A stretch of DNA of 64,000 nucleotides from assembly GCF_036588685.1 (NCBI RefSeq), contig NC_086379.1, positions 80,166,001 through 80,230,000 on the forward strand, in the 5' to 3' direction. Both the position numbers and the translations under genes were made by a program. The notes beneath the pieces were generated by a model, which saw only the letters and a list, made by a program, of their open reading frames with translations, had not been told where the DNA came from and did not search any database. Source of the DNA: Mytilus trossulus (Eukaryota). Below are positions 7,157 through 57,588 of the stretch, in pieces. Each line of letters opens with the position of its first letter. The first letter of the stretch is position 1.

Positions 7157-7328
7157 AAATAGTTATCAAAGGTACCAGAATTATAATTTAGTACGCCAGA
7201 CGCGCGTTTCGTCTTCATAAGACTCATTAGTGACACTCATATTAAAATCTTTTTAAAAGCCAAACATGTACGAAGTTGAAGAGCATTGAGGATGCAAAAT
7301 TTCAAAAAGTTGTGCCAAATACAGCTAA
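7157..7328 (-). mobile_element. Retrozyme fragment (subfamily 2); hammerhead at 7193-7236 with core G5-to-A change
   Basis: Minus strand GUGUCA CUAAUGA GUCU-uauga-AGAC GAAA CGCGCG UC UGGCGU; terminus AATAGTTATCAAAGGTACC on the plus strand. Confidence 0.8.
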
Positions 7329-9003
7329 ATGAGAATATACGTAGTAAAATGGTTCAAAAGGTTATATTGCAGGAAAGAAAGATGCGACTTTCCAGACAAA
7401 GAAAATCGATTACTCAACACTAAAAGGGATAGCATCTGCAGAATTCAAGATGAGGAGGTGTCGATTGGTGATGAAATTACAGTTACTAATTTAATACTAT
7501 TGCAACAACATATCAATTGAAAAATAGTTTGCAGCTCAAACTGAGAAAAAAGTATATCAGAAACAAGATTTACATTTCATGTTTGTTTCAAATATATTAT
7601 GTTCAAAAGCCAAAATTAAAACAGACAACATGTTTTAAAATAATAAAAAAAGATACAAAAATAAAAAGTCCATCCGAAATTCGGAACTTGAATATACCAG
7701 ACATGACAATGACATATAACTTGTATGTATTTTTCAAAACAATATAAAATTCCCTTTAACGTTTGCAAATTGAATCAGAAAGAAGATTTACTGAATTCAA
7801 GCTATTTTTTCTTACATCAAATGGATTTGTATTTCTATAGTAAGTATGATTGCATAATAACTGATACGATAATTTGAATCAATTGGATAACTTGTTTTAA
7901 TTTGGAATTCAGATATAATAATATCAATAAAAGTTCATCAACCCATCTTTTCTTTCATCGACATGAAACGCAAAATAGTATAACAAGTAAAACTGCCGTT
8001 TCCACAAATCAAACTTGCAGTCAGAAAATTAATTTCTTGGTTTGAAGAGAGAACATTTTACTACTGATTACATACACTTGTAAACTGTGGATTTATAGAG
8101 AGAGAGTTATCGTAACTTTTGATCGAATGACATAACAGATAAAAATATGACTGACATTTTAATTGAAACGTAGTAATTTCCCGATGGAAATTCATAAATC
8201 AACAATAATATGTTTGCTAGAATATTGATGAGAGAAGATAACGGATATTTGAATATTCATTTAAGACATATTATTTTTATAAGGGACTTTCCATTTTTAA
8301 TTTTTTTCCTTGGAATTTGGTATTTTTGTTATTTTACATTTTAATGAATTTGGAGAAAAACATATAACCATGTATAAAGGCAACAATAGTAAACCGCTGT
8401 TAAAAAGACAAACAGCGGTTGAAAGAAAACAAATCTGGGTAACGAACTGAAACCGAGGGTACACATCAAATATAAGAGAATTACAATGAAGTGCAAGAAA
8501 AACAGACGCGATTATACAAAGAAACGGATTATTTGAAAACAACTGCATAACAGTAGAGAATAAAAACAAAGACTTGTTGTAGAATTACAATTCTATGTCT
8601 GATCCTGGCGTTTGTCATATAATGATTTTGATTGTCATGGGTGTCCTGTTACTTTTTTACACATTAAGGAAATTATACAACCGATGTATTTTTCATAAGT
8701 AAATCGAGTTATTTTATCGATTTTCACCTTGGCCGGATATAACCTGTTTTAAAATTATTCTTATCAGTCCGACGCATTTCATATTATTTCCATTTTTTTT
8801 TTAACTATATGATATCTAGCAAGTTTGTATTTGATTCCTGCCAGTAGTTACGCATTTAAGCGAATTTAACCACTATACTAGAGAAGCCGTCAGGTACTGC
8901 ATGTATAGCAAGACACAGCAGGAGCACTTGCTATCATGTGCGTTTGTGATGTTAGTTCTACGTAAAGAAAAGTATAGAAAATATCCAACTCAAAGGTTAA
9001 TGT

Positions 9004-9282: not shown

Positions 9283-11302
9283 AAGACGGGCAAGTCCACA
9301 TAAACTGACAACAGCAAATGTGATCAATCAACGGAACGTGAGAAAAAAAACAATTGTTAAATTCCTGACAGATATTTCTCTAGCAAAATTATGGTTTCAA
9401 CCTAGTTTTTATATCCAGCCAAACCTCCCACTTGATAGGAAGACAAGCACATCTTAATTGTTATTACAAGAAATAAAGATGTGACTCTCAACATGAAGAA
9501 TCGATAACCGGACACTATTAGCAAAAACTTCCGCAGAAGAAAAGGCGAAGAGGCGTAAAGAAACGCTACAGTTACAGTAATCATTCAAAAAAATGTGTAC
9601 GCAATAGTTTAGGATTCTTTTGATGTAATAATTAATGGTAAATGAAATACATTTTAAACGACCATCTGCAAACCTGCATTTATTAAAAAAATCTTTTCGA
9701 GTAGCTTTGGTTTATTACTTAAAGATGCAGTGCTAAGTAAGAAGCACTCTTCCGAAAAACTTATATTTATGAAATATAAGTATAAATATTCTTTTTTTTT
9801 TTTAAATCCCTCATTTTTTTTTAAAATTTTTTAACCGCTTATATTTTAAAATATTGCGTTCCTCCTACTTGATCGAACTTTGAAGTTTAATTTTGTGGTT
9901 ATTATTTACTTTTGCGAAAGAAAAGAATCTATTTTTATAATTTAACGAAATTTTAGATATAATAACACATAGAAGCAAATCTAACTTTGTCAGAAAACCA
10001 TTTTGAAACAATAAGAATAAATGAAAAAAAATATTTTACAAAAAAAAAGTGAATAATTTACAGTACAAGTTTATTATTTTACCAACTGAAATACCAATAT
10101 CCATCATTTATCTTTACATCGCATTTAATTAAAAGAATATATAAAACTAATGGAACTGAAGATTTTGTTTCATAGCTTCAGTTGAAATTTAAAACTGAAA
10201 AATAATTATCCGTAGGTTTGTCATCGACATTTTACTAATAATTACTTTACTATTGAGACACACTGAACATATGTATGGCTTTTCTCTAACGATATTTTCA
10301 GGCTTTAAAGCAAGATTTCAGCATCATAAATACTTTGGACTCGAATCAGTTCAAACATTGACATTTAAATTTGAAACATGACTAAACTTTCATTTCTGTT
10401 TTTAATTCTGTAGACAAATTGACATTTGTTTGAGATTTTGTAAAAGTGTTTTGTGCACTCAACAGTGTTGCTGTATAAAATCTGCTTCGAAATTTAAAGA
10501 TAATAAAAATAGCGTGAAAACACAAGTGCTGTATCCAAATTTAAAAAGAGAGGAACAAGATACCAAAGGGATATTCACACACATGTTTTAAACAACGACC
10601 GAAAGAAAAAAAAGAGTCAACAAATAACAACATAGAACACCTAAGCTGCGCAAAATGGACACATAAAAACCACGATGTTTTAAGTAACTGAATAGTCTAT
10701 TTGAACGTGTTTTTGCATTGTAATTGCGAGGATAACATGTTGTCTGTGTAATGTTTTGATGTCTTTTTTTATTGTATTTCTCTTTTTGCACTTTTGTGTT
10801 AAACTGTCTATGACATATGTTTTTTGTATGATTTGAAATCTTCACATCTATTTATTTTTATATTATGCACAATCGGTTCTAATTATTGTCCTGAGTATTC
10901 ATGAAATATTTATCATTTGATTTTGAGTGACGAAAAAATATCATAAAAAAAGGCATCAAAGTAAAGATACTGCATGTTTTAATTTAAAAAAAAATGTCAT
11001 AAAGCGGGAGGTTTGGCATGCCAATCAACCCGGTTCAACCCTCTATGTCAAGAATATGGTAGTTGTTATCAAATAGTTTGTTACTTTTTGTGTTGGAGTT
11101 TTTTTTGTTGCAATTCGGTGTTCCTCTCGTTTCTTTGAATTCTTCTTATAGTTGATGCCTTCCCCTCGGTTTTGGTTTGTAATCCGAATTTATTTTTCTC
11201 AATCTATTTATAACTTTTGAACATTGTTATACTACTGTTGCTTTTAGTGACAATCCTAGCTTTGGTTGATAAAGAACATAAATTTTGCAACACAAGACTT
11301 AC

Positions 11303-11513
11303 CTGACAAATGGATCACAGCTACTATTGTTTCCATATTGACGAGTTGGTAAATTTTTGGATTTTATTAAAGTCACTAGTAATTTTTCTGTCTCTCTTTC
11401 ATATTCAACAGCAAACCACAAACGGCCTATATGATCTATGGGTATTTCATAAGTGTCATCCTCATCAACAATTTTATACAAACTTGGGTCTATTGATCCT
11501 AAGGCATATGCAC
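11303..11513 (-). CDS. SYT15: Synaptotagmin-15-like, C2A exon 1 (GAYALGSIDPSLYKIVDEDDTYEIPIDHIGRLWFAVEYERETEKLLVTLIKSKNLPTRQYGNNSSCDPFV)
   Basis: Acceptor tttattttag|GT and donor AG|gtaagt; 211 nt, phase 1 to 2. Carries the GxIxPxLY and GRLWFxVEY motifs typical of SYT15 C2A. Confidence 0.95.
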
Positions 11514-14500
11514 CTAAAATAAAGTAAAAAGGGGATGTCAGTTGCATGGAACCTTTAATTCTGCTGACCTCTTTAATAAATATTTTGAAAACTCTAATCC
11601 TAAATTACATGATTTATAGTAGCCTGTTTTTCTTTCAAACTCCTTTGCCCATATCTATATAATGTCTAGTTTCGCACAAATAGTTTCTGGAAGTTCAGGT
11701 TGAAAAGTTTCTTAGTTTCTAGTGTTTATAAATGAAAATAAAAAAAGGAAAGCCATAAGTGTGAGCATGCGACATTTTTAACATCTGTTATCATGTTATT
11801 TATATAACTATGTGTTTTTAACTTATTTTTTGTTCCAGTTATTTTTCAGGTGTTGTTGTTTTAAGCATAGGTTATCTTGTAGAATAAGTAAAGTTATGTT
11901 TGATATAGATTAACATGATAAGTGACACGGCCTTTGTAACTTACAGAAGCATGTCTACTCCAAACTGTTTGCATGTACAAGTCCTTTAGTGTGGGTGATG
12001 TTTGCAAACATTCATACTTGTTTGCAAAGTAATAGTTATTTCATTGTTCGAACATTCAACCTGGAATTGAAAGCGTATGTGGTAATTTTAAATTGTACAC
12101 TCCAAGAGAACGTGAGTTGAAAGGGTTGACAACAGGTCATTTTTACCGATCTAATTGAAATGGATAAATCATTAAAAAGATTTATCATGCCTGCTTTTAT
12201 CTTTATATGTTCTTTTATGGCGCTGATAACGACTACCTTGTGGTCATCTGTCAATGCCATATTAATAATAAACATATATTCGAACTTATTAGCTCATTTT
12301 TCTTCTGATCAAATATTCTATGATAAATGATCAAACAAGTTTAAATATGAAATGAATGTCTTATCTTTATCATTGCTGTACGTTAATGGTACTTCAGGAT
12401 GATAGCTGCTGAGTTATAAATCGAATACATCATTGTCTTTAGCGTTGTTTGACTTTTATTTTCATAATGACCTCTAGAGACTAGTCTAATAACGCTCAAA
12501 GTGAAAGTAAACTTTAAATCTTTATTTTTATCCATTATCAATGTGTAGTCCGTTGTTCACTTTTTTGGCTTTAGAAGTCACAACCTTCAAAGATGTGCAG
12601 CCAAACTGAGAAACGGAAGGTCAGGCATTTTTACAAGAAATAAAATACAATCGTGAGTGTCAAACACAAGTGGGCCTTACCATAAAACTAAAATATCAGA
12701 ACACAACTTTTCCTAAGACATTTGCAAACTTAGTCTCACCCTAAATTTAAAATGACGTAAATTCTTAACTAAGAATTTACGGTCAGAATGTATATTTTTG
12801 TTCATGCTCATAGACTGACGTGGTTAATGATCTCGGATGCATTGTCTTTCTGCAGCAGTACTGACATAGTCGAAATGATAGTGATGTGTCATGTCCAAAA
12901 TGAAGACAACCAGTGACAACACAGTTCAAACAGGCAATCAGTCAAATCCAAACCCCAATATTCTTTATAATAATTACATTCGCTACCAATCAGTTATGTG
13001 TTATTTTCAAAGAAGAAGTTAATGAAAAGTAAAATCACAAATATACTGAACTCCGAGAAAAATTCAAAACGGAAAGTCCCTTATCAAATTGCAAAATCAA
13101 ATGATAAAATACATATAACGAACGGACAACAACTGTCTAATGTGTCTATATGTGCATTTAGTATTTATTCAAAATATGAAAAATCAGATTTCTCATATGA
13201 AACAAATATTGATTGTATTTTTTTAATAAACTGACTGGCTAGAAAGTAGAGATATGACAGATCACCACATGATTTTCAAAATTGAGCATATGTATGTGCA
13301 GTATGCAAAATATTATACCAGGCACATAGGTAGTACTTTTTACAAAAGTATCTTGTTGTAATGAACATGTCTGTTTGATTATTATTTTTCTAATTAAACT
13401 CATTGGTCTCGTACAAAATAATCCATTAAGGACCCCTGACTAATAACATTTTTCTTCCAGTGATGGTACGAGAATTGTCTCGACAGGTTAAAAGCTTTAT
13501 TTTGAAATTTGATAAATCTTAAAAAAATATTATTTGAAAAAAAAATGAAAAAAGTTACTCTTCATTGGATTCGTAAAATTGTTTTTCATATATTTCTTGA
13601 ACTTCACTTTCCATTAATTGGTTGTTAACTATCCTACTGTAGATCAATATAGGTATTTTGTCTTGCCGAAGTACACTTCAGTATAATTGAAAAAGTCTAT
13701 ACACTACCAGTGTCCTTGATCAACACTACAGTGGCTTCAAAACAGAATTACAAATAGAATTTTAGACACAAATGAATTCTTTTTGTATGATTTCCTATTT
13801 AATTTTAGTTCACTTAGAAGGTTGAAATTTAGTATGACGTCCATTTTCATTAAACTAGTCTCTTTTTTTTTTTTATTAAAGTGCCGGCTAAGGTTTTATC
13901 GCTGTGTTGAAGACCAATTGGTGGCTTTCGGCTGTTATCTGCTCTTTGGCCGGGTTGTTGTCTCATTGACGTATTCCCCATTCTCTATTTTATCTTTTTG
14001 AAAATGAAACTGAAAAGTTTTTATCAAAACACAATGCCGTTTAGCTGGTGAATAGAACACATATTCTGCCGACATTAGCCATGTACGTCAAATTTATAAG
14101 GACGTCAACTCCTGTTTTACTTGAATCTTTTTCTTCTCTTTACGAAAATTCTACAGTAACAGATAAACAGATATGAGTTATTTAACAACATTGAATATCT
14201 TGTTCGTGTAATTTTCTCTGAACGGATGATAATTGGTTATACATTTAAAAGCCAAATTAGTTTATCTTATTCATGTTCCCAAATGCTTCGATACTAGTAT
14301 ATAATGAACAAAATAAATAAAAAAACTCAAGTCACTTTTTTAAATTCTGTAATAAATGCACAATAAAAATACTTTAAACAAGAAACAAGTATTTCTTAAA
14401 GACTGCATCACAGTTTGTCCCTCTTGTTGCAGATTAAACAATGAAGTTAAGAGAACTAGTAACTAGATAATCGATTTATCGTTTTATTCCCGAGTCTATT

Positions 14501-15341
14501 TGTCTTACAATATAATGCATCCCTGATTTGAAACATTACCATATGAAAAGATAACCATTCCAGATTATTATGTAGATTAAAGTTACAAGCAGGGTATTAT
14601 TAGATGTTAAAACTAGTATGTCCTTAGTGCAATATAAAAAACAAATAAGAACGCATGATCTTTGAAAAGATACACAGTTTTACTAGTGGTATCCTCCTGT
14701 TACCCAAAAAGAGTAAATATTATGTGACTAGTCGCAGAAAGTGATATCACTATTGAGGAAGGAGGACATGATTGTTGCTACGACATTAAGTTGAACTTGG
14801 TAATATGTGAAACAGATATTTAATAACTGTCAACAAAATTATGATTGCGTACATATAACCTTCAAAGGGATGATAAAATGTTCGCCATTTAAACCCTTGG
14901 TATAATTTTTCAATGTTAGTGAAAACCGTCCATGATAAGAAACGCATATTTCAAATATAGCATTGAGTGGGCCATGCAAACTCCATATGCCGGCGTCACT
15001 GACATGTTTTCTCATAAAAACTCTTTCTTGATGACAATGCAAAATTGTAATCTTATGTCCTAAAATATATTTCTTAACAGAACCTATTAACAATTTCTTG
15101 ATATGAATCAAGATACCTACCATAAAATCTGTACATTTTTACTCACAGTTGAACGGAAAAGATGCAACCTACAGAGTTAAAACCAAATATTTATATTTAT
15201 TCAATGACAGGACAAGGTTTCAAGTCCGTCGGCAAATTTGGCCTTAGATTAATTTGGATATATTCAGGTTCTTTTTGTTCATTTAACTCTTCAACTGTTT
15301 AAGTTATCATACATTATTTGCTTTTAAATATTGCGCTTTGG

Positions 15342-15383
15342 ACGTTCCTGTTGAAGGTACATCCAGAAACGCGCTTCGAACGC
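15342..15383 (+). ncRNA. Variant hammerhead-like motif (second family), decayed
   Basis: ACGUUC CUGUUGA A-GG-uacau-CC-A GAAA CGCGCU UC GAACGC; a homologous copy lies on the minus strand at 41655-41694. Confidence 0.5.
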
Positions 15384-15576
15384 AAGCAATTTATAACGTT
15401 GTTTTCATATTCTTTAATTCGGAAAGTTGCTGGCAGCCTATTTTTATTTTTTACTTTACCAGTTGGATTTAACCTCGTGGATTTGAAATAAAGGATGAAA
15501 CAAATACAATTCGTTCTTCTACGTATCTTGAATTACACTTTGAATTGACAGCAAAGGTAGGTTCAAATCTCAGAAA

Positions 15577-15656
15577 GTAAACGACCACACATAACGGTAA
15601 ACGACCACACATAACGGTAAACGACCACACATAACGGTAAACGACCACACATAACG
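15577..15656. repeat. Minisatellite, 4 perfect copies of 20-bp GTAAACGACCACACATAACG
   Basis: Read directly from the sequence. Confidence 0.97.
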
Positions 15657-18126
15657 TCAATTTTCCATTGTACACTTACTAAAGCTCACTATTTAACTAT
15701 TTTTATACGATATGCAACAGATAACGTTTCTTTTTAGTATAACACGGTCACTGTTCACAATAAAGCTATTTAACTTAACGATTCTTGATTGGAATATTGC
15801 AGACATCTTTTCAAAAGTTTGACAGACATAATCATGGCTTTATTGTAGTCATCTTCTATTTGTCACTCGTCCATAAAAAAAAACCTGTACCAAGACAGGA
15901 TTTGACAGTTGTTATCCAATCGATTGATGTGTTTGAGCTTTTGATTTTGTCATTTGATTAGGGACTTTACTTTTTTTGCATTTTCCTCAGAGTTCAGTAT
16001 TTTTGTGATACTACCTTTCCCATTACCTTCTTTGATTACTAGTAAGTCAAATGGTTTTGTACGATTTGAACACACGAATGACGCTACTTTTTAAACAGAA
16101 AGTGTTTACCCTTCAAGAACATATTCATCTTCAGTTTAAATGATGTTTGTATCCCTTTTTTTTTTTGTGCTATTTTGTATACCATAAGTATGTGTTTTGT
16201 TATGTGTGTCGTTTACCTTAGTATGATCGGATGATGTCTACTGTTAGAAAACCAGAAGTACAAAGTAGGCTTGTTGAATCTTCAGTAAAAAATTCTTGAA
16301 AATGTTGACCTTCTTTAAGCGAGCCCTGCTAGAAAGTACTTGATGTAAGGTGGACTATTGTATCAGGAAATATATTGATTATTCTTGAACAACTTAACCT
16401 GTGTAAAACGATCAACTATCTAATCCTAAGAGGATCTCAAGTTCCAAAGTAATTTGGTTTGAAGGTATCATTTGACTTTTGTAATAGTTAAATCTTTTCA
16501 TCGTTATAAAGTTTTTAGGTAAAATTATTATGTAACATCACTAATATTTTGTTTAATGTCAAAATATGCTCCAACTGCAGTTTGGGGTGTTTAAAATGTG
16601 TGTCTTGTAATTCAATTAAAAAAGGGGCATATTACAACAACAACAACAACAATTTTTATTTGTCAATCAAGACGCCCCGAGGAGCAGTACAATTACAGTT
16701 TAAATTAAAGTGTACAAATAATATAATTCAGCGGTTGTCGTTTGTTCCAGTATATTATAATTGTATTTCGCTCATTGTTTTTTTTTTTAAATCAAGCCGT
16801 TGATTTTTCTCGTTTAAAGTGTTTTACATTTGTCATTTCGGGTCCTTTTATAACTGACTATGCAGTATGGGTTAACGGTAATCATGGCTGTTAACTTCTA
16901 TTTCCTTTGGCCTATGTTGGAGGTTGGTAGCATGGCAATCATAACACTTATGTCCATCTTTGTAGAATATATTAAAATTGTATGACGCATACGTATTACA
17001 TAAACACATGTTAAAAATTTGTTTACCCGGTTTCCTCTCTTATTCTTGATGTGTTTCTTTCAGTTTTGTAACTCGGATTTGTTTTCTCTCAATCGATGTA
17101 TGATTTTTGAACACCAGTATACTACTGTTGCCTTTTTTTTTTTATCGAAAAGTATGAATCATTAAAATAGTTATTATCAAATATCCAAATTATTGTCACT
17201 ATGACATAATTGATTGTTGGTTGCTTAACGTCCATTTGGCGAACATATTATGCACTTTCCGAATACGTAATATGAAGCCGATAATCTGATTTTTTAGTCC
17301 ATCCGACACATTATGATAATAATTCCCATCTCTGCAACAATATATATAACCATATCATGTATTTGATCAGCAATATATGACATGTCAAGCTTCGACTTTT
17401 TTTATGATGATTTGATGTCGGTGTGATATTCATAATGTCCAGGGAGTACAAAAAAAGTGATATCACAAAAATACCAAACGATGAGAAAAATTCAAAACGA
17501 GAAGTCTACAACCAAATGGCAAAATGAAAAGCTCAAATACACCAAACGAAAGGATAACAACTGCCATATCCCTGACTTGGTATAGACATTTTCTTATGTA
17601 GAAAAGGAGGATTAAGCATGTTTAAACAAAAGTAAGATATTAACAAACGAACTATTTTTAATTCTTATATTATCGTCTAAAGAAAAGTCAATGAATCATT
17701 TCCAAATTTTGAAATGAAATTTCGATTATTCGTATTACATTCCGCTTTTACTTTTTTATTTTTGATGTAAGGCTTGTATCGTTGGTGAGTCTGATATATA
17801 TTTTTACATATGTTTTACTATCTTAAATATCGCCTCATATATATTCACATTAAGCTATTGACATATTATCATATGTGTAACGCATTTTACTTACCGATTG
17901 TCTTAATATAGTGAGTTTGGACATTATTAGTGTAAATCCTGATTGCACAAGTTAAACACAACATTTGATAGACATTCAAATATTTAATGAGCCATTTTTT
18001 TATTATCTAAAAGCATGCACAAATATATTTATAATAGAAACAAAGAATGTTGGTATCTATTTATGAAACAAAATTAATACACGAACAGCTGTTTGGCTCT
18101 TTGCAAATTCGAGGTGGTCGAATGTG

Positions 18127-18390
18127 AATAAACTCATCATAGATACCAAGATTAAATTTTGTATTTACGCCAGAGGCACGTTTCGTCTACAAAAGACTCA
18201 TCAGTGACGCTCGATTAAAAAAAAAACAAAAACAAAAAGGACAAAAAAAGTACGAAGTTGAAGAGCAAGTTTTGCCAAATAGAGCTAAGGTTATCTATTC
18301 TTGAGGTAAAAAAGCCTTAGTATTTCAGAAATTTAAACGTTTTGTAAACAGTTAATTTATAAATATGATCATATCAATGAAAATTCATTT
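18127..18390 (-). mobile_element. Retrozyme fragment; hammerhead at 18167-18210 with disrupted stem III
   Basis: Matches the 365-bp unit. Minus strand CUGAUGA GUCU..AGAC GAAA CGUGCC UC, with a C-C mismatch at 15.2/16.2. Confidence 0.8.
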
Positions 18391-19117
18391 CAGATCATTT
18401 ATTTAATATATCAACATTAAGAGAGTTAAACGTCTAAATACAAAGCATTTTAAAAAATCCTGGTTAATAGCGTACCATTTTCCTCATTAATCAATTGTGC
18501 TTTACATTTTAGGGGCATAAGCGTGAGTTCGTTTCTGTGTGTGTTATATTTTAACGGTGTGCGTTTGTTTCCTCTTATAATTGAGTGTGAATTCACATTA
18601 TTATGAGCCGTGTCACGGTACTTTTATATCCAAAATTCATGTATTTAGTTTTTATGTTATATTTGTTATCCTCATCGGATATTTTCTAATGCTTAGTTCG
18701 TTTTTGTGTGTGCTACATTTTAATGTTGTTTCGTTGTTCTCTTATATTTAATGCGTTTCCTTCAGTTTTAGTTTGTAAACAAGATTTGGTTTTGTTTCTA
18801 TCCATTTTTGAGTTTTGAACAGCGGTATACTACATTTGCCTTTATTTAAGCGTTGTCAGTTTATTTTTGATTTATGAGTCTCTGGTATCTTTCGTCCCTC
18901 TTCTTTAATAGACAAAATACATACAATTTTAAAATAAAGTAGATTCACCACTGAAAAAATATTATCCACGCGAAATATGCATGTTTACTTCATCCGATCA
19001 AATTCGTTTTGAAAAACAATGGAAAAAAAGCTTGAACCAGGCATTCTGTAATTATGAAAATCTCTGTTCTTTGGTAATTTGGCTTAGGAATAGTGGTATC
19101 AATATCAACTCCTACAT

Positions 19118-19253
19118 CATTGGCGGATCCAGGGTTGGAACCCCCCTTTTTTTGGCCGATCAATGCATTTGTATGGGGACATACAGTTGGAACCCCTCCC
19201 CCTTTTGTCCTGGGTTGGGAACCCCCTTTTTAAAATGGCTGGATCTGCCCCTG
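19118..19253. mobile_element. 136-bp MITE with CA(TT/GG)GGCRGATCCAG termini (hAT-like)
   Basis: CATTGGCGGATCCAG ... CTGGATCTGCCCCTG inverted termini, with three internal GGAACCCC repeats. No clear TSD. Confidence 0.7.
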
Positions 19254-19576
19254 TACCTTTTTTTTTTTAATATATTTAATTTCATTTTGCATATAAATAC
19301 ATGCATGGGCAATACCTTTCAAATTACTATTTATGCGTTGCGTCTTAATTAAAATTGTAACACTTTATATTGACTGAAAAGGGTAGAAAAAATTAAAAAT
19401 CATCAGATGAGAAAATGCTGAAGACACCTGGAAACAGCACCATATATACATTGCATCTCATAAAAAGAAACTGAGTCTGAGATTTGGATAGTTCCACTTC
19501 AAGGTAAAAATATTTATCTCTTGTGAAATGAAAAAAAAATTAACACTGTAGTTAATTAATAAAGATACTACCACGT

Positions 19577-19690
19577 GTATTTCTGTATTGGCCTTGTTAT
19601 TGGTCCTCGGCCAGCCTGTATTGGCCTGAGGCTTCGCCTCAGGCCAATACAACAAGCCTCGGACCAATAACAAGGCCAATACAGAAATAC
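19577..19690. repeat. 114-bp foldback palindrome, probably a non-autonomous DNA element core
   Basis: Perfect 30-bp outer arms (19577-19606 and 19661-19690) and perfect 16-bp inner arms (19617-19632 and 19636-19651) around a TTC loop. Confidence 0.9.
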
Positions 19691-21130
19691 TAACGTAATA
19701 ATATCATAATATTGTTGCAAAATGACGATACTCTAGGAAGACAAATATCACATACACTTAAAACTGAGATATGTGGACCTGAATTCATATAAATCGTTGC
19801 ATTGTTGATGACAATGGTAAGGAACAATTTTCGAATGTTCTGTGTGTTATATGTGTTAAATGAATTGCGGGAACTTCATATTTTCTAAACATACAACAAA
19901 AGTGCGTGTTTTATATAAAGTTTACAATATAGTCCTCGTAATTTATGAGTTTAATGGATTTAAGCAATCTGAAAGCGACATATTATTTGATGCAAACATT
20001 AAAGATCGTTTGATAATTGAAAACAAATTATGATTGTAAATAAAATGTCATTGAATTACAAAACTCAAAATGGAGCACAAATAATAATTACGTCTTAAAT
20101 GATTCATATTCACGTATAAAAAATGATCAAGCACTTATTTTACAGAAATTGCATTTGATATATTAAGTAATGTCAATTCACGTCTTAAATATTTTCCAAT
20201 TTGAGAAAGAATTAATTGTAATTTCATGCTAAATAAACACGAATATATTTTGAAACGGGATGAAGCCGTCTACATAAAATGCATATTTCACATTTTAATA
20301 TCAGACCTTTCAATCAATGCTACAAACATAAAGCATAACCCTGCTTATGTGATGGCTTCTGGGATATCAAAACTCGATGTTAATTGACGATTGTACGACA
20401 ACATTACGATTTATATTTAAAAGATGTTTTTCGTTTTATTCGGCTTTAATAAGATTTAATATGGTAAAATGAGACAGGTTCTTTTAGCTTCACCCTTATA
20501 ATTTCTGGTTATTTCTTCTTAAACCTTTCATTTGTAATGAAATATATCGATATTTTGTAAACAGTTTACCAGACTGGAAGACAGGTTTTAAGTTATCAAG
20601 CATGCAAGCAATGTCAGACTGATAAATTGTCCGACTTCCAGAAAAACGTAAAAATACAAAGTACATGCATATTGGGCGAGTGTAACAAATCTTAAATGAC
20701 CCTTTGAAAGATTCATGATCTGCCCAACCGACAATATAATCAATTTTATTTTTGTGTGATAAGCATATTTGAGACCAGTACTTTTGCAGGCCGAAATATA
20801 TGCGTTGGAGAACAAAAACCAAAAGCAAACAAAAGGTCTATGTGTATCCAATTAACTAAAATGCTTTAAGAATTCTTTAAAAAAATATATATAGACACTA
20901 TATATTTTAAGACGAAACAGACGAGCGTGGAGCAAAACATAACTTTAATGTAATAAGACTTCTGTTAAGAATAGGGCACTATCTATTTTACAACGAAAAA
21001 GACAATCGTGGATTAATACATTACTCATACAAAGTGTTATGAGGTTTTAATCATATCTGTTGCATCTAGTATAAAAATTGAATTACTTTAAATAAACTCA
21101 TCATAAATACCAGGACGAAATTTTGCATAT

Positions 21131-21174
21131 ACGCCAGACGCGCGTTTCGTCTACAAAAGACTCGTCAGTGACGC
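21131..21174 (-). ncRNA. Type I hammerhead ribozyme with intact core; predicted cleavage GUC^ between 21137 and 21136
   Basis: Minus strand reads GCGUCA CUGACGA GUCU-uuugu-AGAC GAAA C-GCGC-G UC^ UGGCGU. All core nucleotides are present, with a 6-bp stem I, 4-bp stem II and short palindromic stem III. Lies in the retrozyme fragment 21091-21260. Confidence 0.88.
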
Positions 21175-21784
21175 TCGAATCTAAAAAAAGTTAAAAAGGC
21201 CAAAATAAAGTACGAAGTTGAAGAGCACTGAAAATCAAAATTCCTAAAAGTTCTGCCAGATGCATTCAGTTTAAGAACACTACCAACATTTTTTAAGGAA
21301 AATCATTTTGAAAATGCCTTAAATACTACCCACAATACACACAATACATAAAATTCCCCAGTTAACCAGGTAGGTTTCTTTGGTTTCATCTGATGAACAT
21401 TGCATAATCGTATTTTACCACTACATGAATAAAGGATTAAAGACAATGGCATATCAACTAGCATTAAAACAGACGTCTATAACAGAAAATAAACCAGGGA
21501 TAGTTAGGAGAAATCAACTTGACAATGTCATGTTGTTTTTTATTTTCAAAAGATGTTATAGATGATGTTGCTAGTATTAAGAAGGCATATGACAACCGCC
21601 TTAAAAAGCTCAATGAGTTATTGAGCTTATGTAATTTTATTTATTCTTTTCTTTAAGTTTTGCAAATTTATTTTGTCTTTTGTGCTTCTTTGTTACATAT
21701 TTAATTGTTCTTGTAGTTACTAAGACAATGTTGACATTTTTATCTATAATGTATGTTTGTTTTGTTCACACATCGTTGACAATT

Positions 21785-22000
21785 TAATAGAATATGATGC
21801 AACTGTCATACAAGTGAGACATTTAGCTAGCTATACACCAATGTTTAATCCATCATTTTCTTCTTTAAATAATTCCTGTTTCAAGTCAGGAATATGACAT
21901 TTGTTATTCATTCGTTTGATTTGTTTGAGCTTTTGATTTTTGCCATTTGATAAGGGACTATCCGTTTTGAATTTTCCTCGGAGATCAGTATTTTTGTGAA
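21785..22000 (-). repeat. Dispersed repeat family A copy
   Basis: Reverse complement of 33057-33270. Confidence 0.85.
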
Positions 22001-25000
22001 TTTAATTTTTGCACCATATCAAGACACCATTCAGGAATGCAAAACAGAAAAATTGAAACAACTACCGTTTAAATTATTTTCAGAAGTATTTTTTTGTTAT
22101 ACAAAAGCTTGACATAAGTTTAAGGTTTGGCAAAATACGGATAGTGTAACCAACTCTTTCGGTCAAAATCCACAGTATTTAAAAAAAGTAAGAGTTTTGT
22201 AAAAAGTTAATATATGATTATGATAATATTATTGATAAATCACGCCAACACTGACTACTGTTCTGTTGATAAAATCAGTGAGATAACCACCACCAGCAGT
22301 GGCATCTAATAAGCGATACCTTTTAACCTCATATGGAGAAGGGAAAAAAATTGGAGAGTAATATCTATTTTTCATGCAATTACAAGCATTCTTCCAAAAT
22401 ATATTTATATAAAAAGACATCAGCACTTTAATTTATTTTTTAATTTGAATTTCCTAGTTAATTCCCTAACTGAGCAGAACAAGAGAGTGAGGCAGGTATT
22501 AACATTGTTGTCGAAGAGGTGCATAACAATATATAACGATAAACCTTTATCTTGTTTAAAACATGCCTGATGAGGTTTTAAATCGGTCAATAATGTTATC
22601 ATTACTACTGTAGAACCAGAAAAAATTGACCCAAAATTAAATTGACTAATTATATGACTCTGACTATTTATATCCAACAAATTCGTCCATAAACATCATG
22701 ACGCACATTTGCAATAAAGATAGGAAAATCAAAGCAAATGAAAGCAATTATTACCTCCGCTATATGGAATAACAACCGAGTTTTGTGTTAACACTGGTTA
22801 ATAGTCCCATTGTGACCCTCTATGACAGTTTTGTTGAGTACAAAGAACTGTCGTTGAAAATCATGGAAAACAATTATTAGCTTTGCCTGCAAATTATCAT
22901 CATTATGACAAATTGGTGTAGCAACTTCATATACAATTCTAGATAATATTAAGTTATTAAATAATTTTAATTGTTTTTTTACATGCATAATAGCAGAGAC
23001 TTCCCACTCACGTACCTTACCTTCTTTCAACTGTAGTTCGTGCGACGTTACCTGTGTTTGTTGCAATCCTAGATTTTATGGGCATGTGCCTTTGTGTTCT
23101 ATTATAGATATAGGAAGATGGGGTGTTAGTGCTGATGAGACAACTCTTCATTCAAATTACAATTTACAAAAGTAAACCATTATAGGTCAACGTACGGCCT
23201 TCAACACGGAGCCTTGGCTCACACCGAACAACAAGCTATAAAGGACCCCAAATTACTAGTGTAAAACCATTCAAACGGGAAAACCAACGGTCTAGTCTAT
23301 ATCGTATATTTTTGGAGTTTTTGAAATTCTCTCAGTTTTCGTTCGTTACATTGATTTGGCTCATCTTATTCGCGAATGGATGTTTGATAACCTTGTTTCA
23401 AAACAGCAAGCTGCATAATGAGGATAACCACAATTTTGAATCTAATTTCGAAAGAAATATGATGCATGGACAACACATTTGTTTTGACATAACATAAAAT
23501 AAATCGAACTTGACCCATCGGACAAAATGCCGTTGTACACATAAAACAGATCTTCCTTCTTCAAAATTGAAGAATTCTTATAATGCTTATAAAATTACTT
23601 ATATGAATATGAAATATTCACATTTAAAGTTTCTGATGTATGGTTGTTTATTTATCAACATTTATAAATTCAGGACCATAAAAAATGAACGATATTGTGT
23701 TAAGTTGCATAACAAACAGAAAGCCTTACTAAAAGATATAACTAATAACTAGTTCAGGACTAAAGTGTAAAATTTTATTAGTATGAACGAATAATGTTTT
23801 GTTTTACAATGAAAGAAACGCTATCGTTTTATTTTGCTTTTATATCAAATTACAATTTCTTGTAAGGCATTGATACGTATAGCTTTCTAATGATTTGATT
23901 TATTTCGAAATCATTGTTTTGAAAGGAGAAACATAAAGCTGCATTGATTTCTTTACTTAAAGGATACAAAGCACGTTTATTTTGAAAACTTAACATCCTG
24001 TTTAATAGACAGCAAATGGAATTCTAATTGAAAGAGACTAAAAAAGAAATGAAAATAAAGAAATAATGTTCAAATTCCGAATTTTAAAATACATTTTGAG
24101 AAAAGATTGTTTGCTGTTTTGAATAATACATCCTCAGTTCTTTTGAACATTCATCCAGCCTATATGTGAAAGATTATGTGAACTTGAAAAGCATCTCATT
24201 TTAGTAGTTCGACTATACAATGTATAGCATGTAATTAAAGTTGTTGTAAGAATGCGGAATTAATAGTTTGCATTAGCTTAAATGGGATGGCTTCTACCCG
24301 GAAAGAAAGAACATTAACCTCCTACGTAAAAATGAAGTAGCGGTTTGCTTTAGATATAAATTATTAATGAAAATGGTTTTTTTTTTAATTTTTAGGCAAA
24401 TAAAACAACCAACAATGGCAATCTCAATATAAGTCCTCATCGAACAAAGTAACAGATTTTCTTGTTGTAAAAAATTGCAACAAATAACAATAATGATTTT
24501 TTGTATGTGCATCCTTTCTAGATCGTGTATAATATTTCAAGGCAAAAACATAAAGCTGTCCTCTTAAACATATACCCTGTACAACAAAAACCTATTGTCT
24601 AAATTTTGCTGAATACGAATGTGTCAAAGACGTGACGTGTAGGATGTCACATTGTTTGTCAATCGGTAAATAAACATAACCTCTTTAAGGGGATATTTAT
24701 GCATTAAATAAAACTTCAGGATATGTAAACAAAAATGGGGAGAGACTACTAAATTTCCGGTTTGAATTTTCCTAGGCGTTCCGTTTTTTGTTGTTGTTTT
24801 ACCTTTTTAGTAAGAACTGCTAAATGTACAGAAACTCACGTAAAAGATGCGTTACAGTGATGTACATTCGAAAGCGATGTTGATTAAAACAAAACTTTAT
24901 AAATGTCGATCGTTCGTACCGGTTTTTTTTTTTAGGTATGCCTACATCAAGCACGCTGGTACTTACAAAATCTGAAAGCCGAGGATATTTATATATATAT

Positions 25001-26539
25001 ATAGAGAAAGATACTGAAAAACTTCGGGAGGTTAAAGACCACATGGGGTCTACAGAGATATATCCTCTGATGGTAATTTTTCCTGAGGGAGTCAAAACCT
25101 TAATATCTTAGTCATTTTTAAATCATGAACAGAAAATTTAAGAAATATTTGTTATAAATCGTGTCAGTACCAAAGCACTAACTTCACAGTTAATGATTCC
25201 CTGGGGATAAGCAATCCGTCAGCAATTGTATCGAATAATGATTACAAAATGAAAATCACTTTATCTATCACCGAAGAATCTAAACGCATTTTACGTTTTT
25301 GTTGATCAGCAAAACAGTGGCGCAATAAGCAAAGAAAACATTTATTTTCTATTTAAAGTTAGGAAATATAATGAATGTATCACTGGAAACTTCTTCAACA
25401 AATCAATTAACTGAAAGGTTCCTCGAACAAATGATACTTATCAAATGGGGTTACAGCGAGGGTCAAGTACTTACCATTATAGTCGATAGGAAGACAACTT
25501 TGTGTTTTTTGAAAATATTTTGCATAGAAAATGTTTTATCGAATTGCTTAACCAAATAAAATAATATTAATATACCTTTTACGCTCAAAGTAGATGGAGG
25601 TTTTAATAAATTGTCAAAATGTAGTTTATATGATTGTTTTTTTTTTAAAGATAATAAAAAGTATGAGTCAGTGTTTTTTTTTCACTCTACAGATTGTGTA
25701 AAATTATCAGATTAACCCAACGGTAACGTTCACAACGTTATACAAGCTTTTGTCAAGGCAAACGCTGTATGTATACTTAGAAATAATAAATTAATAAACG
25801 TCCAAGATATTATGTATATTATGTATATTACATTAATATATATCATTATTAACATCAATAATATATCATAAGAACAAGAGAGTATCTTATAACGTCCTTA
25901 GTTCATATGTCTATACACAAATTATATTAACGAATTTTCTTATAAGAGCATTGAACTTTGATCTGTAGAGTTCTTTGATCTTTATAGTTTCCATTTTTAA
26001 AATATATCCTCAATGTTGAAGTGGGTTCTAAATGTTTGTTGTTCTCAATTAATTAAGTTTTAAATTGATTTTTTTTCTAAAAAGCAAATTCAATTGTTTG
26101 TATAAAAATGTGTCTTCAATTAATTTTAAACGCCTGCAGCCATATGTTGATACTTAGACATTTCTCTTTCAGTCCGATTTGGGTATTATTAATTAAAGAT
26201 CTTATGGATTTCAGAACATTGAGTATTCTATTCTCTAATATCGTCATAAATATGATTTTCCTTTACCTGCGAAGTTAAGGAAAACAGGCGATTACAGTCA
26301 TTCACGTTCGATAAAAGTAAAATAACAAAAATACCGAACTGCAAGGTACATTCAAAACAGACAGTCCTTTTTAGTGTGGCAAAATTAAAAGCTAAATACA
26401 TCTAACGAATGGAAAACAACTGTCTTATTATGGACTTCTTGCAGACATTGCCTGATGTAGAAAGTGATCTATTAAACCTTATTTTCTAGCTCTGTATACC
26501 TCTCACATTATGTAGTATTTTTCAGCAAAAGATTACTCT

Positions 26540-26840
26540 TAAAAGAGGGGCGAAAGATACCAGAGGGACATTCAAACTGATAAATCGAAAACAAATTGAA
26601 AACGCTATGCAAAAATAAAGACAAAAAGACAAACAATAGTTTACAAAATACAACTTAGCAATTTAGCAACACGAACCCCATCAAAACCGGGGGTAATGTC
26701 AGAAGCTCTAAATAGGTAGGTAGATCCTACTACACATGTGGCACCCATCGTGTTGTTCATATTAATACGAACCCGTTAACAAGTCTAGTTAGATAGGTCA
26801 CATTTATGCATTCATGAAAAAAGGGACGGGATTGTAGTAA
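26540..26840 (+). repeat. Dispersed repeat family F (head AAAAGAGGGRCGAAAGATACCARAGGGAC)
   Basis: Homologous copies at approximately 5017-5166(-), 10544-10640(+), 18851-18906(-), 31140-31305(-) and 41850-41888(-). Confidence 0.82.
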
Positions 26841-27616
26841 CGACTTTAGGAACATATCCGCTAAGATAAACTGCACGGTAATACAAGCACAATGCCATTT
26901 TACATACGTTATTTTGTTACTAACTATCTTAATTAAGCCGATGAGAAACCCCATTACCTGACTAACGAAAGACAAATCACATTTTACTTGAGTGCCACTG
27001 AGGATATGATTTTTAAAATACATAGACATCTTTTACAATATCTTTACATAAAGAGTTTTCAGATTCACAAGCGGTATACCCTTTCCTTGGCACCATACAT
27101 AATGTGATACAACTTTATAAATTACTAGAATATGAGAACTACATTACACAGTCAGTTGGCACATAGGCTGGTAAGATGATGTCTTCATTGATGATTAGAC
27201 ATCTTAGAGAAAAATATTAATTTGCAACTGAAAAATGCAGTCACTTGTACGTCCCGATCCTCCTTTTCCATTTTGAAAAGATTGACTTTTGAATGATGGA
27301 CTAAATCGGAAAGGGACATTCTTCTCTGTTACTGTGATACATGGTGTAGATCTGTACTTGTATTTGAAATTTGTATAAACAAAGAGTTGCATGTGGTCCA
27401 AATGTTTCGACATATTTGACATGTCTTTGATAGTCAAAATAAAAATCAGGTGATAAAAGCTTTGAAAATCTGCAAAGATTTCGAATTACCTCAAGCGTTT
27501 TGTCAACTTATTTAATTGTAAGTTATTGAAATTGTCATTATATTATTATTTATGAAAGCATGTATAATAAATATATCAGGAACAGTTAAAAAATATAAGA
27601 AAGCGAAAGTCATTAC

Positions 27617-27762
27617 CTGGAATTTCTACAGATGGTCTTTTTACACAAGGCGATGTCGGTTCCGATAATCCTCCTGAAGGTTGATATTCCTCGGACGATC
27701 CTCTGGCCAGTCGACGTACATCCACACTTTGATTTGGAACAGTGAAAGGTATTTGTCGCATG
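27617..27762 (-). CDS. SYT15: Synaptotagmin-15-like, linker exon (MRQIPFTVPNQSVDVRRLARGSSEEYQPSGGLSEPTSPCVKRPSVEIP)
   Basis: Acceptor cttttgccttgcag|C and donor CAG|gtaatg; 146 nt, phase 2 to 1, fitting both neighbours. IPFTVP matches the PFVVP linker motif of SYT15. Confidence 0.88.
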
Positions 27763-29237
27763 CTGCAAGGCAAAAGAATTAATGAATGGTAACGACGGAG
27801 CATCGTTTAATGTCAACCTGTCATTTCGTAAGGTTGTGGATATCAACAAGATGTTCCATTGATTTTTCTATCAAAGAAAAGTAAATCTGAAATTCCAAAG
27901 ACTTAAACGATTAGTTTCTTATATTCTGTGAAGAAGTGATTTGAAGAATGAATGAAAAGTCTCGATTCTTCTCCCATTAAGATTTCTATCGGAAATACAA
28001 CAATTCTTTATGTTACATCATGCAATACAATTGCCAGGAAAATCTGGTTCCATCAAAGTTCCAATATCAACGTGTTACTTGTCAATCTGTATTATTTAAC
28101 TATCCATTTAGAGCTCTGTTCAACAGAGTAAAATATGTACGTGTTAACATGCTATCAACCTCTAATAAAAATATAATATCTGAAGTGAGCCAGGAGAAAA
28201 ATTGGCCGTAGATAAAGTTATAAACGGGAATGGAATAATTACTGAGACTGGTTGCTTATAAAGACATAGGCGGACAATCAATTTACTTTAAATCATTCTT
28301 TATGGATATCATATTCATTCTTTAATCTAACTATCTGAGATGAGACATTTTGTATAGTCGTAAAGCGAATGATGTAAATAAATGCATGTGTTTAGGTGTG
28401 TAATAAACAAAATCAATGTAATTGACAAAGAAGAAAAGCAGATGAGACTTAATCCCACAGTTGCCACCAATTTTACAGTTATTGGACAAATTCATGATCT
28501 GTATGTCAATAATATATGTAAAAATATATAGCTATTCCATAACACTGACGTCTTATCTCATAAAGAGAAAGATGGAAAATGACAAAACATTGTAAATGTA
28601 AAAATCGCTCTCTGATTTGATTTGTTAAGACTTCAGTGAGGGAGAAAATAACTCTACGAATTGGCACAGATCTGATAGATTCATTTCATTGCTGCATGCA
28701 CGACAGCACTTACATCCAAGATAGAATGAGCATCCAATTTTACGAGACTATAGGAGTTTAAAACCAATTTCAGAAGACACACTGACAATTTTCTCTGAAG
28801 GAGTCAACCTTCACTTGTAATATAGAAAGATTATTTTCCATAACTAATATAGGAAAATTGTCCATAAAAGGTTTACGGTATGAAGATTCGTTTAAATTAC
28901 TCTACTCAGTAATAATAAAATAGAATAGCTGGCTAGAATATAAATGCAAAGAAGACATCCAACATAAAAAACAAACTTCCATTGCAAAGCAAAACTATCT
29001 CTCTAGCTTTCCAATACAAAGTGCTTTAAGCAGGAAGCGTTTCTAACCGGAGCACCCAAACTAAGCATATAATGGGTTTTGGTGTTTTGGTTTTGCTACT
29101 GGTTCAATAAATCATCATAGGTGGGTATCAAATGTCTTTGAACAGCGGTATACTATTGTTGTCTTTACTTAAAGTTTGCGCTAAGACATACTTAACTTTG
29201 TGTTATTTTGTTTATATTAGTAATGCCCCTTGTTGAT

Positions 29238-41694: not shown

Positions 41695-41762
41695 AAATCA
41701 TTAAAAGTCAAGGATGTATTAGAACCGAAACAGTGTTTGGCTTTATAAATATTTTGATATGA

Positions 41763-41806
41763 GCTTCACTGATGAGTCTTATGTAGACGAAACGCTAGTC
41801 TGGTGT
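41763..41806 (+). ncRNA. Type I hammerhead ribozyme, core intact, one stem I mismatch (retrozyme subfamily 2)
   Basis: GCUUCA CUGAUGA GUCU-uaugu-AGAC GAAA C-GCUA-G UC^ UGGUGU; predicted cleavage at 41800/41801. The fragment ends at TTTGATAACTATT (~41841). Confidence 0.8.
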
Positions 41807-41916
41807 ACTAAATTATAATCCTGGTACCTTTGATAACTATTGAACAGGTATAAGTTTGACAGTCCCTCTAATATCTTTCGCCTCTCTTGTATAAATATAT
41901 TCCAAAACAAAAACTA

Positions 41917-57544: not shown

Positions 57545-57588
57545 CTACAAAAAAATAAAGAACAACACTTTAATAATGATATCTAATC

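What the first reader, a model, noticed from the sequence alone, without database searches (positions are those of the whole stretch)
21131..21174. Fully intact hammerhead ribozyme on the same strand as the SYT15 pre-mRNA
Seen: this is the only copy in the window with every core base and all three stems intact (CUGACGA / GAAA / GUC). It sits in the 16.1-kb intron between the linker and C2A exons, in sense orientation. Inference: it could cut the nascent intron and affect splicing or transcript output. Its minimal stem III is palindromic, so it may need a partner to form a dimeric hammerhead. Other sense copies (7193, 18167, 46620, 52943) lie in the same pre-mRNA, and abundant retrozyme RNA could act in trans.
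Basis: partly seen in the sequence, partly recalled or inferred. Interest (0 to 1): 0.7.

Follow-up and report, generated by a model that had tools for sequence, protein, structure and literature searches.

The report
Mussel retrozyme fragment in SYT15 intron
A self-cutting RNA motif (hammerhead) does lie on the transcribed strand of a mussel synaptotagmin-15 intron, but it is one of about 18,000 equally intact motifs carried by a small jumping repeat and is likely a passenger with little effect on the gene; where the repeat's copies end points to a Naiad retrotransposon as the enzyme that likely spreads them.

Summary
Observation confirmed: type I hammerhead (RF00163) at 21131-21174 (-), cut 21137/21136, sense in the 16,103-nt SYT15 intron, the only strictly intact copy of 13 in the window. 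It is not exceptional. It ends a 175-nt 5'-truncated fragment of a 354-365-nt repeat matching the published Mytilus non-LTR retrozyme. The genome holds 17,973 exact intact cores (0.89 expected per 64 kb). The motif is not significantly better conserved than its flanks (1/44 vs 11/129 changes, p=0.30), no sense-strand depletion was seen (low power), and the locus is CpG-rich and also collects ribozyme-free Naiad fragments. A cloned family monomer was reported to cut slowly (about 0.1/min), so a partner is not obligatory; slow intronic hammerhead cuts reportedly spare splicing. A regulatory role is unsupported but untested in RNA. More interesting is the family: 90 of 128 copies, this one included, end 33-48 nt past the cut, just before a stem-loop shared, with paired changes, with the start of a Naiad Penelope-like element whose copies end at the same point (47 of 59). 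This likely names the mobilising enzyme. I found it independently; the scan had noted it before on other DNA of this genome.

The parts
21131..21174 (-). Type I hammerhead ribozyme motif; cut predicted between 21137 and 21136
   Evidence: RF00163 34.5 bits; sequence
21090..21264 (-). 5'-truncated retrozyme fragment (last about 175 nt of a 365-nt subfamily-B unit); 3' end 47 nt past the cut, at the family's fixed end point; lacks the Naiad-like stem-loop and a second hammerhead
   Evidence: 5' boundary approximate
11514..27616 (-). SYT15 intron (16,103 nt, GT-AG, phase 1) holding the fragment
27617..27764 (-). SYT15 linker exon (upstream of the intron; 5' edge approximate)
   Evidence: tblastn 100% to P0001 aa 69-118
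11302..11513 (-). SYT15 first C2A exon (downstream of the intron)
57357..57548 (-). SYT15 transmembrane exon (edges approximate)
   Evidence: tblastn 95% to P0001 aa 5-68
18127..18388 (-). Sense retrozyme fragment in the same intron; stem III mismatch, but enzyme half intact (possible dimer partner)
7192..7329 (-). Sense retrozyme fragment, G5 to A core change
46618..46759 (-). Sense retrozyme fragment, A6 to G core change
51668..52788 (-). Three-unit tandem retrozyme array (period 362), all hammerheads broken; units carry the Naiad-like stem-loop (e.g. 52672-52768)
52923..52986 (-). Sense retrozyme fragment, stem II broken
41736..41834 (+). Antisense retrozyme fragment with complete core, one stem I mismatch
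21731..22010 (+). Ribozyme-free Naiad 3'-end fragment next to the finding; one of 11 in the window, all ending just before the shared stem-loop

Best explanation
The motif is the hammerhead of a 5'-truncated copy of a high-copy 354-365-nt repeat, likely the published Mytilus non-LTR retrozyme, sitting in a SYT15 intron as a likely neutral passenger that would cut at most a minority of nascent transcripts, slowly. How it got there (inferred): a Naiad Penelope-like reverse transcriptase/endonuclease likely binds a stem-loop that the retrozyme shares with the Naiad 5' region, nicks AT-rich DNA, starts copying about 5 nt upstream of that stem (47 nt past the hammerhead cut), reads back through the cut site on a circular or uncut multimeric RNA, and here stopped after about 175 nt. 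Shown: the motif, copy number, fixed 3' ends, shared stem-loop, truncation. Inferred: the enzyme, the template form, the slow rate in vivo and the lack of effect on SYT15. The fragment has one hammerhead and no stem-loop, so it cannot release a circle or be copied again. It likely stayed intact because the insertion is moderately young (about 7-8% from its relatives) and the locus is CpG-rich, so probably unmethylated.
For: 17,973 exact intact cores genome-wide, 0.89 expected per window; 3 exact cores in 270 kb of fixed-coordinate control regions. Nearest paralogues 89-92% identical (40 of 5017 candidates scored); 17 of 28 nearest relatives are also fully intact (chosen by similarity, so biased upward). 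Changes from the relatives' majority: 1 of 44 in the motif, 11 of 129 outside, Fisher p=0.30. The window is a sink for both retrozyme insertions (156/Mb vs 44/Mb in controls) and ribozyme-free Naiad fragments (172 vs 22/Mb), with sense:antisense 6:4 and 7:4. CpG o/e 0.76-0.93 along the window against 0.44 near WD40/kinase exons. Published mussel retrozyme: 350-390-bp repeats, lacks most loop1-loop2 tertiary nucleotides, kobs about 0.1/min (PMC7229834). 42-44% of Xenopus retrozyme copies are intronic and 8 of 9 predicted dimers did not cleave in vitro (bioRxiv 10.64898/2026.07.22.740005). Mechanism: 90 of 128 ending retrozyme copies and 47 of 59 ending Naiad copies stop within 4 nt of the shared motif; cut-to-motif distance differs by subfamily (33, 42, 48 nt), so the motif, not the cut, sets the end; motif similarity to the Naiad unit beats 300 of 300 shuffles while the rest of the retrozyme does not; 3 of 7 outer-helix pairs change on both sides between the two elements.
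Against: The motif has fewer changes than its flanks (2% vs 8.5%), not significant but in the direction of constraint; the chance of no hit in 20-30 critical sites is only 0.07-0.17 per copy. The insertion's 5' junction is bridged in 3 of 4 other DNA runs from two studies, so it is not a private new insertion. Its distance to the next exon (9.6 kb) is close to that of the functional CPEB3 ribozyme (9,931 nt, half-life 2-3 min; PMC10274809). Intact cores are rarer near conserved WD40/kinase exons (1 in 1.196 Mb vs 3 in 0.27 Mb, p=0.02), though on both strands, which fits CpG decay better than cleavage. The orientation test had only 16 retrozyme insertions in gene-centred regions, whose flanks were assumed, not shown, to be intronic. 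Identity with the published family rests on length, motif and genus, not on a sequence comparison (supplement unreadable). The paired changes between retrozyme and Naiad are one divergence event, not independent ones.
Confidence: 0.8

Rival explanations
1. Co-opted regulator: the hammerhead cuts a large share of nascent SYT15 transcripts before the next exon is made and so tunes mRNA output, like the CPEB3 intronic ribozyme.
For: Sense strand, strictly intact, 9,623 nt from the acceptor, similar to CPEB3's 9,931 nt; only 1 change in 44 nt, at the neutral N7 position; insertion shared with other individuals; family half-life in vitro about 7 min, of the same order as the transit time (elongation rate of 1-3 kb/min is recalled).
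Against: Expected by chance; conservation not significant (p=0.30); the family lacks the tertiary contacts, which hammerheads need for speed at low Mg2+ (established knowledge, recalled); the measured rate is for 37 C transcription buffer, not mussel temperature; splicing reportedly survives a slow hammerhead cut.
Confidence: 0.06
2. Unselected but real leak: the copy cuts a measurable fraction of transcripts, alone or as a dimeric hammerhead with the 18167 copy or abundant retrozyme RNA, mildly lowering SYT15 output without being selected.
For: The palindromic stem III allows an 8-pair intermolecular helix (-21.4 kcal/mol for the half-structure with an identical partner, -13.7 with the 18167 copy); retrozyme circles are reported as abundant; Xenopus retrozymes are modestly depleted from introns.
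Against: The predicted minimum-energy dimers are not double hammerheads except one half-formed case; the partner lies 3 kb away; no strand-specific depletion compared with Naiad fragments (6:10 vs 7:17, Fisher p=0.73, low power).
Confidence: 0.1
3. Dead in practice: the copy looks intact but misfolds and never cuts.
For: The minimum-energy fold of the 44-mer pairs the core GACG with the cleavage-site CGUC; the hammerhead fold lies 9.6 kcal/mol above the ensemble versus a median 7.8 for 71 U7 copies. 8 of 9 predicted Xenopus dimers did not cleave.
Against: With 90 nt upstream and 42 nt downstream the penalty (9.7) is no worse than the family median (10.2); the model does not score the core's non-canonical contacts; a family member does cleave. 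This reading is a limiting case of the best explanation rather than an opposite.
Confidence: 0.25
4. The shared stem-loop is only a relic of common ancestry, and the retrozyme is now spread by another enzyme (a hammerhead-bearing Penelope/Neptune element or a LINE) or by DNA-level duplication.
For: Xenopus retrozymes relate to pLTRs of other PLE clades; this genome also holds C-terminal GIY-YIG PLEs, some with their own minimal hammerheads.
Against: The motif matched none of the C-terminal GIY-YIG loci above shuffles except one marginal hit outside the ORF that looks like a decayed retrozyme piece; the structure is kept by paired changes; both elements end at the same point.
Confidence: 0.15

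Closest known systems
Mytilus galloprovincialis non-LTR retrozyme (Cervera and de la Pena 2020, PMC7229834; read parts 2-4 of 6, supplement unreadable)
   Same: Type I hammerhead in 354-365-nt AT-rich tandem and dispersed repeats of a Mytilus genome; no ORF; thousands of copies.
   Different: This copy is a 175-nt single-hammerhead fragment that cannot make a circle; the count here (17,973 exact cores) exceeds the published 5,000; the paper names PLEs only as candidate helpers and, in the parts read, reports no fixed end or helper motif.
Naiad Penelope-like elements (Craig et al. 2021, PMC8557442; passages read)
   Same: The element in L121 has N-terminal GIY-YIG (aa 183-273), CxC, DKA and YIDD, a 4,280-nt tandem unit, and no hammerhead found; it shares the 85-nt stem-loop module and the 3' end point with the retrozyme.
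   Different: The retrozyme has a hammerhead and no ORF, and lacks the Naiad's 24-nt side hairpin; the rest of its unit is unrelated to the Naiad.
Anolis Poseidon PLE internal initiation (Frangieh et al. 2024, PMC11167929; read parts 1-2 of 4)
   Same: Reverse transcription starts inside the RNA, downstream of the hammerhead cut, at an AC-rich stem-loop near the ORF start, and genomic copy ends match the start sites; cleavage is not needed.
   Different: That is an autonomous C-terminal-endonuclease element tested in vitro, with two start sites; here one dominant end, a non-autonomous element, and no biochemical test.
Intronic ribozymes of vertebrates: CPEB3 HDV-like (PMC10274809, passages) and amniote intronic hammerheads (PMC6765202, passages)
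   Same: Sense-strand self-cleaving motif in a large intron, about 10 kb from the next exon.
   Different: Those are single-copy and conserved across species; this is one of about 18,000 near-identical repeat-borne motifs with no shown conservation.

Membership tests
Type I hammerhead ribozyme | Core CUGANGA / GAAA / NUH with three stems, stem I open | tested here: met
   RF00163 over gathering score, positions 1-45 of 45; sequence
Type I hammerhead ribozyme | Self-cleavage after the NUH triplet | not testable with these tools
   No RNA holder listed; a family member cleaves at about 0.1/min
Type I hammerhead ribozyme | Loop1-loop2 tertiary contact for fast cleavage | not tested
   Not modelled here; the paper says mussel motifs lack most of these nucleotides
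Metazoan non-LTR retrozyme | Type I hammerhead inside a 150-450-bp repeat unit occurring in tandem | tested here: met
   Units of 354 and 365 nt, arrays in the genome and window; this copy is a truncated monomer
Metazoan non-LTR retrozyme | No ORF, low GC, no LTR/PBS/PPT | tested here: inconclusive
   No ORF of 55 aa or more over the fragment and AT-rich units; PBS/PPT not searched
Metazoan non-LTR retrozyme | Expressed as linear and circular monomers | not testable with these tools
   No RNA run held the stretch; a single-hammerhead fragment cannot release a monomer
Metazoan non-LTR retrozyme | Sequence identity with the published mussel clones | not tested
   Supplement unreadable
Co-opted intronic regulatory ribozyme | Single-copy motif conserved beyond its flanks and across species | tested here: not met
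   17,973 exact cores; 1/44 vs 11/129, p=0.30; cross-species state of the core unresolved
Co-opted intronic regulatory ribozyme | Effect on host mRNA when inactivated | not testable with these tools
   Needs experiment
Naiad PLE (the proposed helper, L121) | GIY-YIG endonuclease N-terminal to the RT | tested here: met
   PF01541 at aa 183-273 of 1056; YIDD at 901; Pfam RVT_1 itself was not detected at E 0.01
Naiad PLE (the proposed helper, L121) | CxC linker motif and DKA motif | tested here: met
   CDC at 488, DKA at 615; diagnostic per PMC8557442
Naiad PLE (the proposed helper, L121) | No canonical hammerhead; tandem or partial-tandem copies | tested here: met
   None found by my descriptor in L121, L124, L126, L129, L130; 4,280-nt tandem unit

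The most novel reading that the evidence does not exclude
The mussel retrozyme is a hammerhead parasite of the hammerhead-free Naiad clade: it carries the Naiad's own RT-recruiting stem-loop, which fixes where copying starts (about 5 nt upstream of the stem, 33-48 nt past the ribozyme cut). Because every copy reads through the cut site, the template must be the ligated circle or an uncut multimer. This names the helper enzyme and its RNA signal for an animal retrozyme, and gives the first candidate recognition element for any Naiad.
Probability: 0.7. Interest if true: 0.6.

Novelty: new member of a known kind. Interest (0 to 1): 0.35.

Why it matters
The intronic copy itself matters little: thousands like it are expected on the sense strand of mussel introns, so it is a caution against reading intact intronic hammerheads as regulators in retrozyme-rich genomes. 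If it did tune SYT15 it would be an invertebrate counterpart of the CPEB3 ribozyme (about 6% likely). The family-level result matters more: which enzyme spreads animal retrozymes has been left open (PLEs proposed in 2020; homology to PLE pLTRs shown for Xenopus in a 2026 preprint), and the shared stem-loop with a matching end point makes that directly testable with one protein and one RNA.

Tried and rejected
RNA evidence: no RNA holder listed among 20 runs; this is no evidence either way. Exact-match lay of four DNA runs to see the core allele in other animals: uninformative, swamped by paralogues. No empty-site joint among the 15 joints listed (614 more not shown), so presence/absence polymorphism is undecided; 3' junction contigs enter the element by only 26-27 nt, under the 31-nt bridging rule. 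Orientation test around 120 WD40/kinase exon hits (1.196 Mb): too few copies (14 spanning the hammerhead, 2 fully intact, 1 sense and 1 antisense) to decide; control set only 27 regions (270 kb). Misfolding by the C7 variant: seen in the bare 44-mer, not in context, so not used as a main argument. Target-site duplication: none evident by eye at this insertion; not tested across copies. An ORF starting at the AUG inside the core: closed by an immediate stop. Pfam found nothing for the first C2A exon and the linker exon; homologue search was used instead. A 29-nt match of the retrozyme tail in some Naiad 3' UTRs was first taken as a shared end and then read as a short retrozyme insertion. PMC2755206 and PMC2933863 are not held, so Fong 2009, Dye 2006 and the amniote intronic hammerheads are cited second-hand from PMC2995048 and PMC6765202. 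Not-in-print claim for the Naiad link rests on searches, 75 of an open-access library; unread supplements (PMC7229834, PMC8557442 files, the 2026 preprint tables) or Repbase entries could hold it.

Full report
1. Observation. The Rfam scan of the 64-kb window returns one match above a gathering score, Hammerhead_1 at 21131-21174 on the minus strand (34.5 bits, E 7.6e-5). The sequence has stem I of six pairs (two wobbles), core CUGACGA, a 3-4-pair stem II, GAAA, a two-pair stem III whose strand is an 8-nt palindrome, and GUC, placing the cut between 21137 and 21136. The host gene is confirmed: the C2A exon is 97% identical to a protein named SYT15 from Mytilus coruscus, tblastn maps its exons to the minus strand, and the gene is single and complete in the genome. 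The intron is 27616-11514, 16,103 nt; the cut lies 9,623 nt before the acceptor. Thirteen family copies lie in the window, 8 sense and 5 antisense. This is the only one with every core base and all stems; the antisense copy at 41763-41806 misses by one stem I mismatch.

2. What it belongs to. The motif is the 3' part of a fragment at about 21090-21264 of a repeat with units of 354 nt (subfamily A) and 365 nt (subfamily B, this copy). The genome is 1.30 Gb, and an exact 34-position pattern for the intact core matches 17,973 times, against 0 for the reversed control. That is 0.89 per 64 kb. Many matches are in tandem arrays, so dispersed copies are rarer, but 27 fixed-coordinate control regions (270 kb) still held 3 exact cores. 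Length, motif and genus fit the Mytilus galloprovincialis non-LTR retrozyme (PMC7229834, parts 2-4 of 6 read): 350-390-bp repeats, abundant circular RNA, hammerheads lacking most tertiary-contact nucleotides, and a cloned genomic repeat cleaving at about 0.1/min. The supplement could not be read, so identity is not confirmed by sequence.

3. Is this copy under selection? Against the per-column majority of its 28 nearest relatives it differs at 12 of 173 columns: 1 of 44 in the hammerhead (the neutral N7) and 11 of 129 outside, Fisher p=0.30; 17 of the 28 relatives are also fully intact, though they were chosen by similarity. At 8.5% divergence the chance of sparing 20-30 critical sites is 0.07-0.17 per copy, unremarkable for the best of 13 copies but in the direction of constraint. 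The motif holds 7 CpGs. The window has CpG o/e 0.76-0.93, against 0.67 in controls and 0.44 around WD40/kinase exons; low methylation is my inference for why it survives. Across 147 regions, motif hits rise with CpG o/e (rho 0.25, p=0.002). The window also collects insertions generally: retrozyme 156/Mb and ribozyme-free Naiad fragments 172/Mb, against 44 and 22/Mb in controls. Strand counts were 6 sense to 4 antisense (retrozyme insertions) and 7 to 4 (Naiad) in the window, and 6:10 and 7:17 in 120 gene-centred regions (Fisher p=0.73). Intact cores are scarce near conserved exons (1 in 1.196 Mb; p=0.02 against controls) but on both strands. These tests are low-powered and the gene-centred flanks were assumed intronic. 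Contigs of other animals bridge the 5' junction in 3 of 4 runs from two studies, so the insertion is shared; the state of the core there could not be seen.

4. Would it cut, and would it matter? ViennaRNA's best fold of the 44-mer pairs the core with the cleavage site; the hammerhead fold costs 9.6 kcal/mol over the ensemble against a median 7.8 for 71 U7 copies, but in context the copy (9.7) is no worse than the family (10.2) (79 distinct contexts). So it is an ordinary member. The published monomer rate gives a half-life near 7 min in transcription buffer at 37 C; colder water and lower Mg2+ would likely slow it (inference). Transit over 9.6 kb takes several minutes (recalled rate). A minority of transcripts would be cut, and passages in PMC2995048 report that splicing proceeds after a slow intronic hammerhead cut but not after a fast HDV cut. 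In a 2026 preprint (10.64898/2026.07.22.740005, parts 1-3 of 5 read), 42-44% of Xenopus retrozyme copies are intronic with modest depletion, and only 1 of 9 predicted dimers cleaved. Against my reading, the spacing resembles CPEB3 (9,931 nt; half-life 2-3 min; PMC10274809 passages). I put co-option at about 6%.

5. How it got there. Copies do not end at the ribozyme cut. In a non-overlapping set of loci (dropped: L026, L031, L055, L061-L089, L096, L102, L108, L120 as duplicates or array overlaps; hits near locus edges or starting under 50 nt upstream), 90 of 128 ending retrozyme copies stop within 4 nt of one point and 35 more run on into the next unit; in loci not chosen by retrozyme searches the figure is 32 of 51. 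That point is 42, 48 and 33 nt past the cut in three subfamilies, always just before an AC-rich leader and stem-loop; this copy ends at +47. A GIY-YIG search and 15 fetched loci showed the same module at the start of a 1,056-aa ORF in L121, a Naiad by domain order and CxC/DKA motifs (criteria from PMC8557442 passages), with no hammerhead found. The module matched 4 of the 15 loci clearly, all of this family; one more was marginal and looks like a decayed retrozyme piece; ten did not, including one 5'-truncated Naiad. Against one 4,280-nt Naiad unit it beats 300 of 300 shuffles, while the hammerhead part and the remainder do not (96 and 40 of 100 shuffles score as high). Naiad copies end at the same point (47 of 59; all 11 fragments in this window). 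On 9 retrozyme and 4 Naiad sequences, RNAalifold predicts a 21-pair structure in which 3 of 7 outer-helix pairs change on both sides and two more pairs change on one side between the two elements, 96% of cells paired; this is one divergence event. The first in-frame ATG of the Naiad ORF follows at +95. This parallels the Anolis Poseidon element, where reverse transcription starts internally at an AC-rich stem-loop near the ORF start and sets genomic ends (PMC11167929, parts 1-2 of 4 read). Inference: Naiad RT/endonuclease binds the module on a circle or uncut multimer, starts just upstream, and copies back through the cut site; here it stopped after about 175 nt, leaving a dead-end fragment.

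6. Novelty. The element is a known kind and the intronic placement is ordinary. The general PLE-retrozyme link is in print as a hypothesis and as pLTR homology in Xenopus. The specific Naiad helper, shared stem-loop and fixed start were not found in searches. I reached this before consulting earlier notes; the scan had already recorded it on other DNA of this genome, and had judged several other sense-intronic copies to be passengers. Those notes are unchecked and are not counted as support.

7. Verdict. Observation confirmed; regulatory reading unsupported (about 6%), passenger reading about 80%. Interest of the intronic claim alone about 0.15; with the family mechanism that this copy's 3' end exemplifies, 0.35.

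Noticed in passing
window 5723-5891, 8285-8342, 13025-13137, 15872-16018, 17452-17613, 21731-22010, 24754-24807, 26313-26511, 33057-33273, 37269-37347, 58242-58510: Eleven Naiad 3'-end fragments in the SYT15 introns, all ending within 1 nt of the base before the shared stem-loop.
   Followed up: yes
L099, L100, L104 at 550-578; L124 at 248-276: A 29-30-nt retrozyme tail appears inserted and fixed in one 3' UTR repeat of a Naiad subfamily; sister repeats show the empty site.
   Followed up: partly
L236:6143-6540, L243, L271, L128, L134: A third retrozyme subfamily with a different hammerhead (core CUGAAGA, other stems) and a 33-nt tail that also ends before the shared stem-loop.
   Followed up: partly
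L131 near 4326 and L133: C-terminal GIY-YIG PLEs with their own minimal hammerhead just downstream of the ORF, unrelated to the retrozyme motif.
   Followed up: no
G000:C1:26001466-26027886, C3:16309078-16365028, C4:20128862-20149986: Long tandem arrays of near-identical single-exon kinase-domain units with periods of about 1.7-1.9 kb.
   Followed up: no
window 31733-32684: GC-richer stretch with several overlapping ORFs inside a SYT15 intron, possibly a decayed mobile element.
   Followed up: no
window 20896-21025: 49-nt imperfect inverted repeat just downstream of the fragment.
   Followed up: no
window 63739-64000 and 15577-15656: 35-nt and 20-nt minisatellites.
   Followed up: no
G000:C1:113381-118369 and 269294-284874: Large homogeneous retrozyme arrays (15 and over 40 units) near the start of C1, likely sources of circular RNA.
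   Followed up: no
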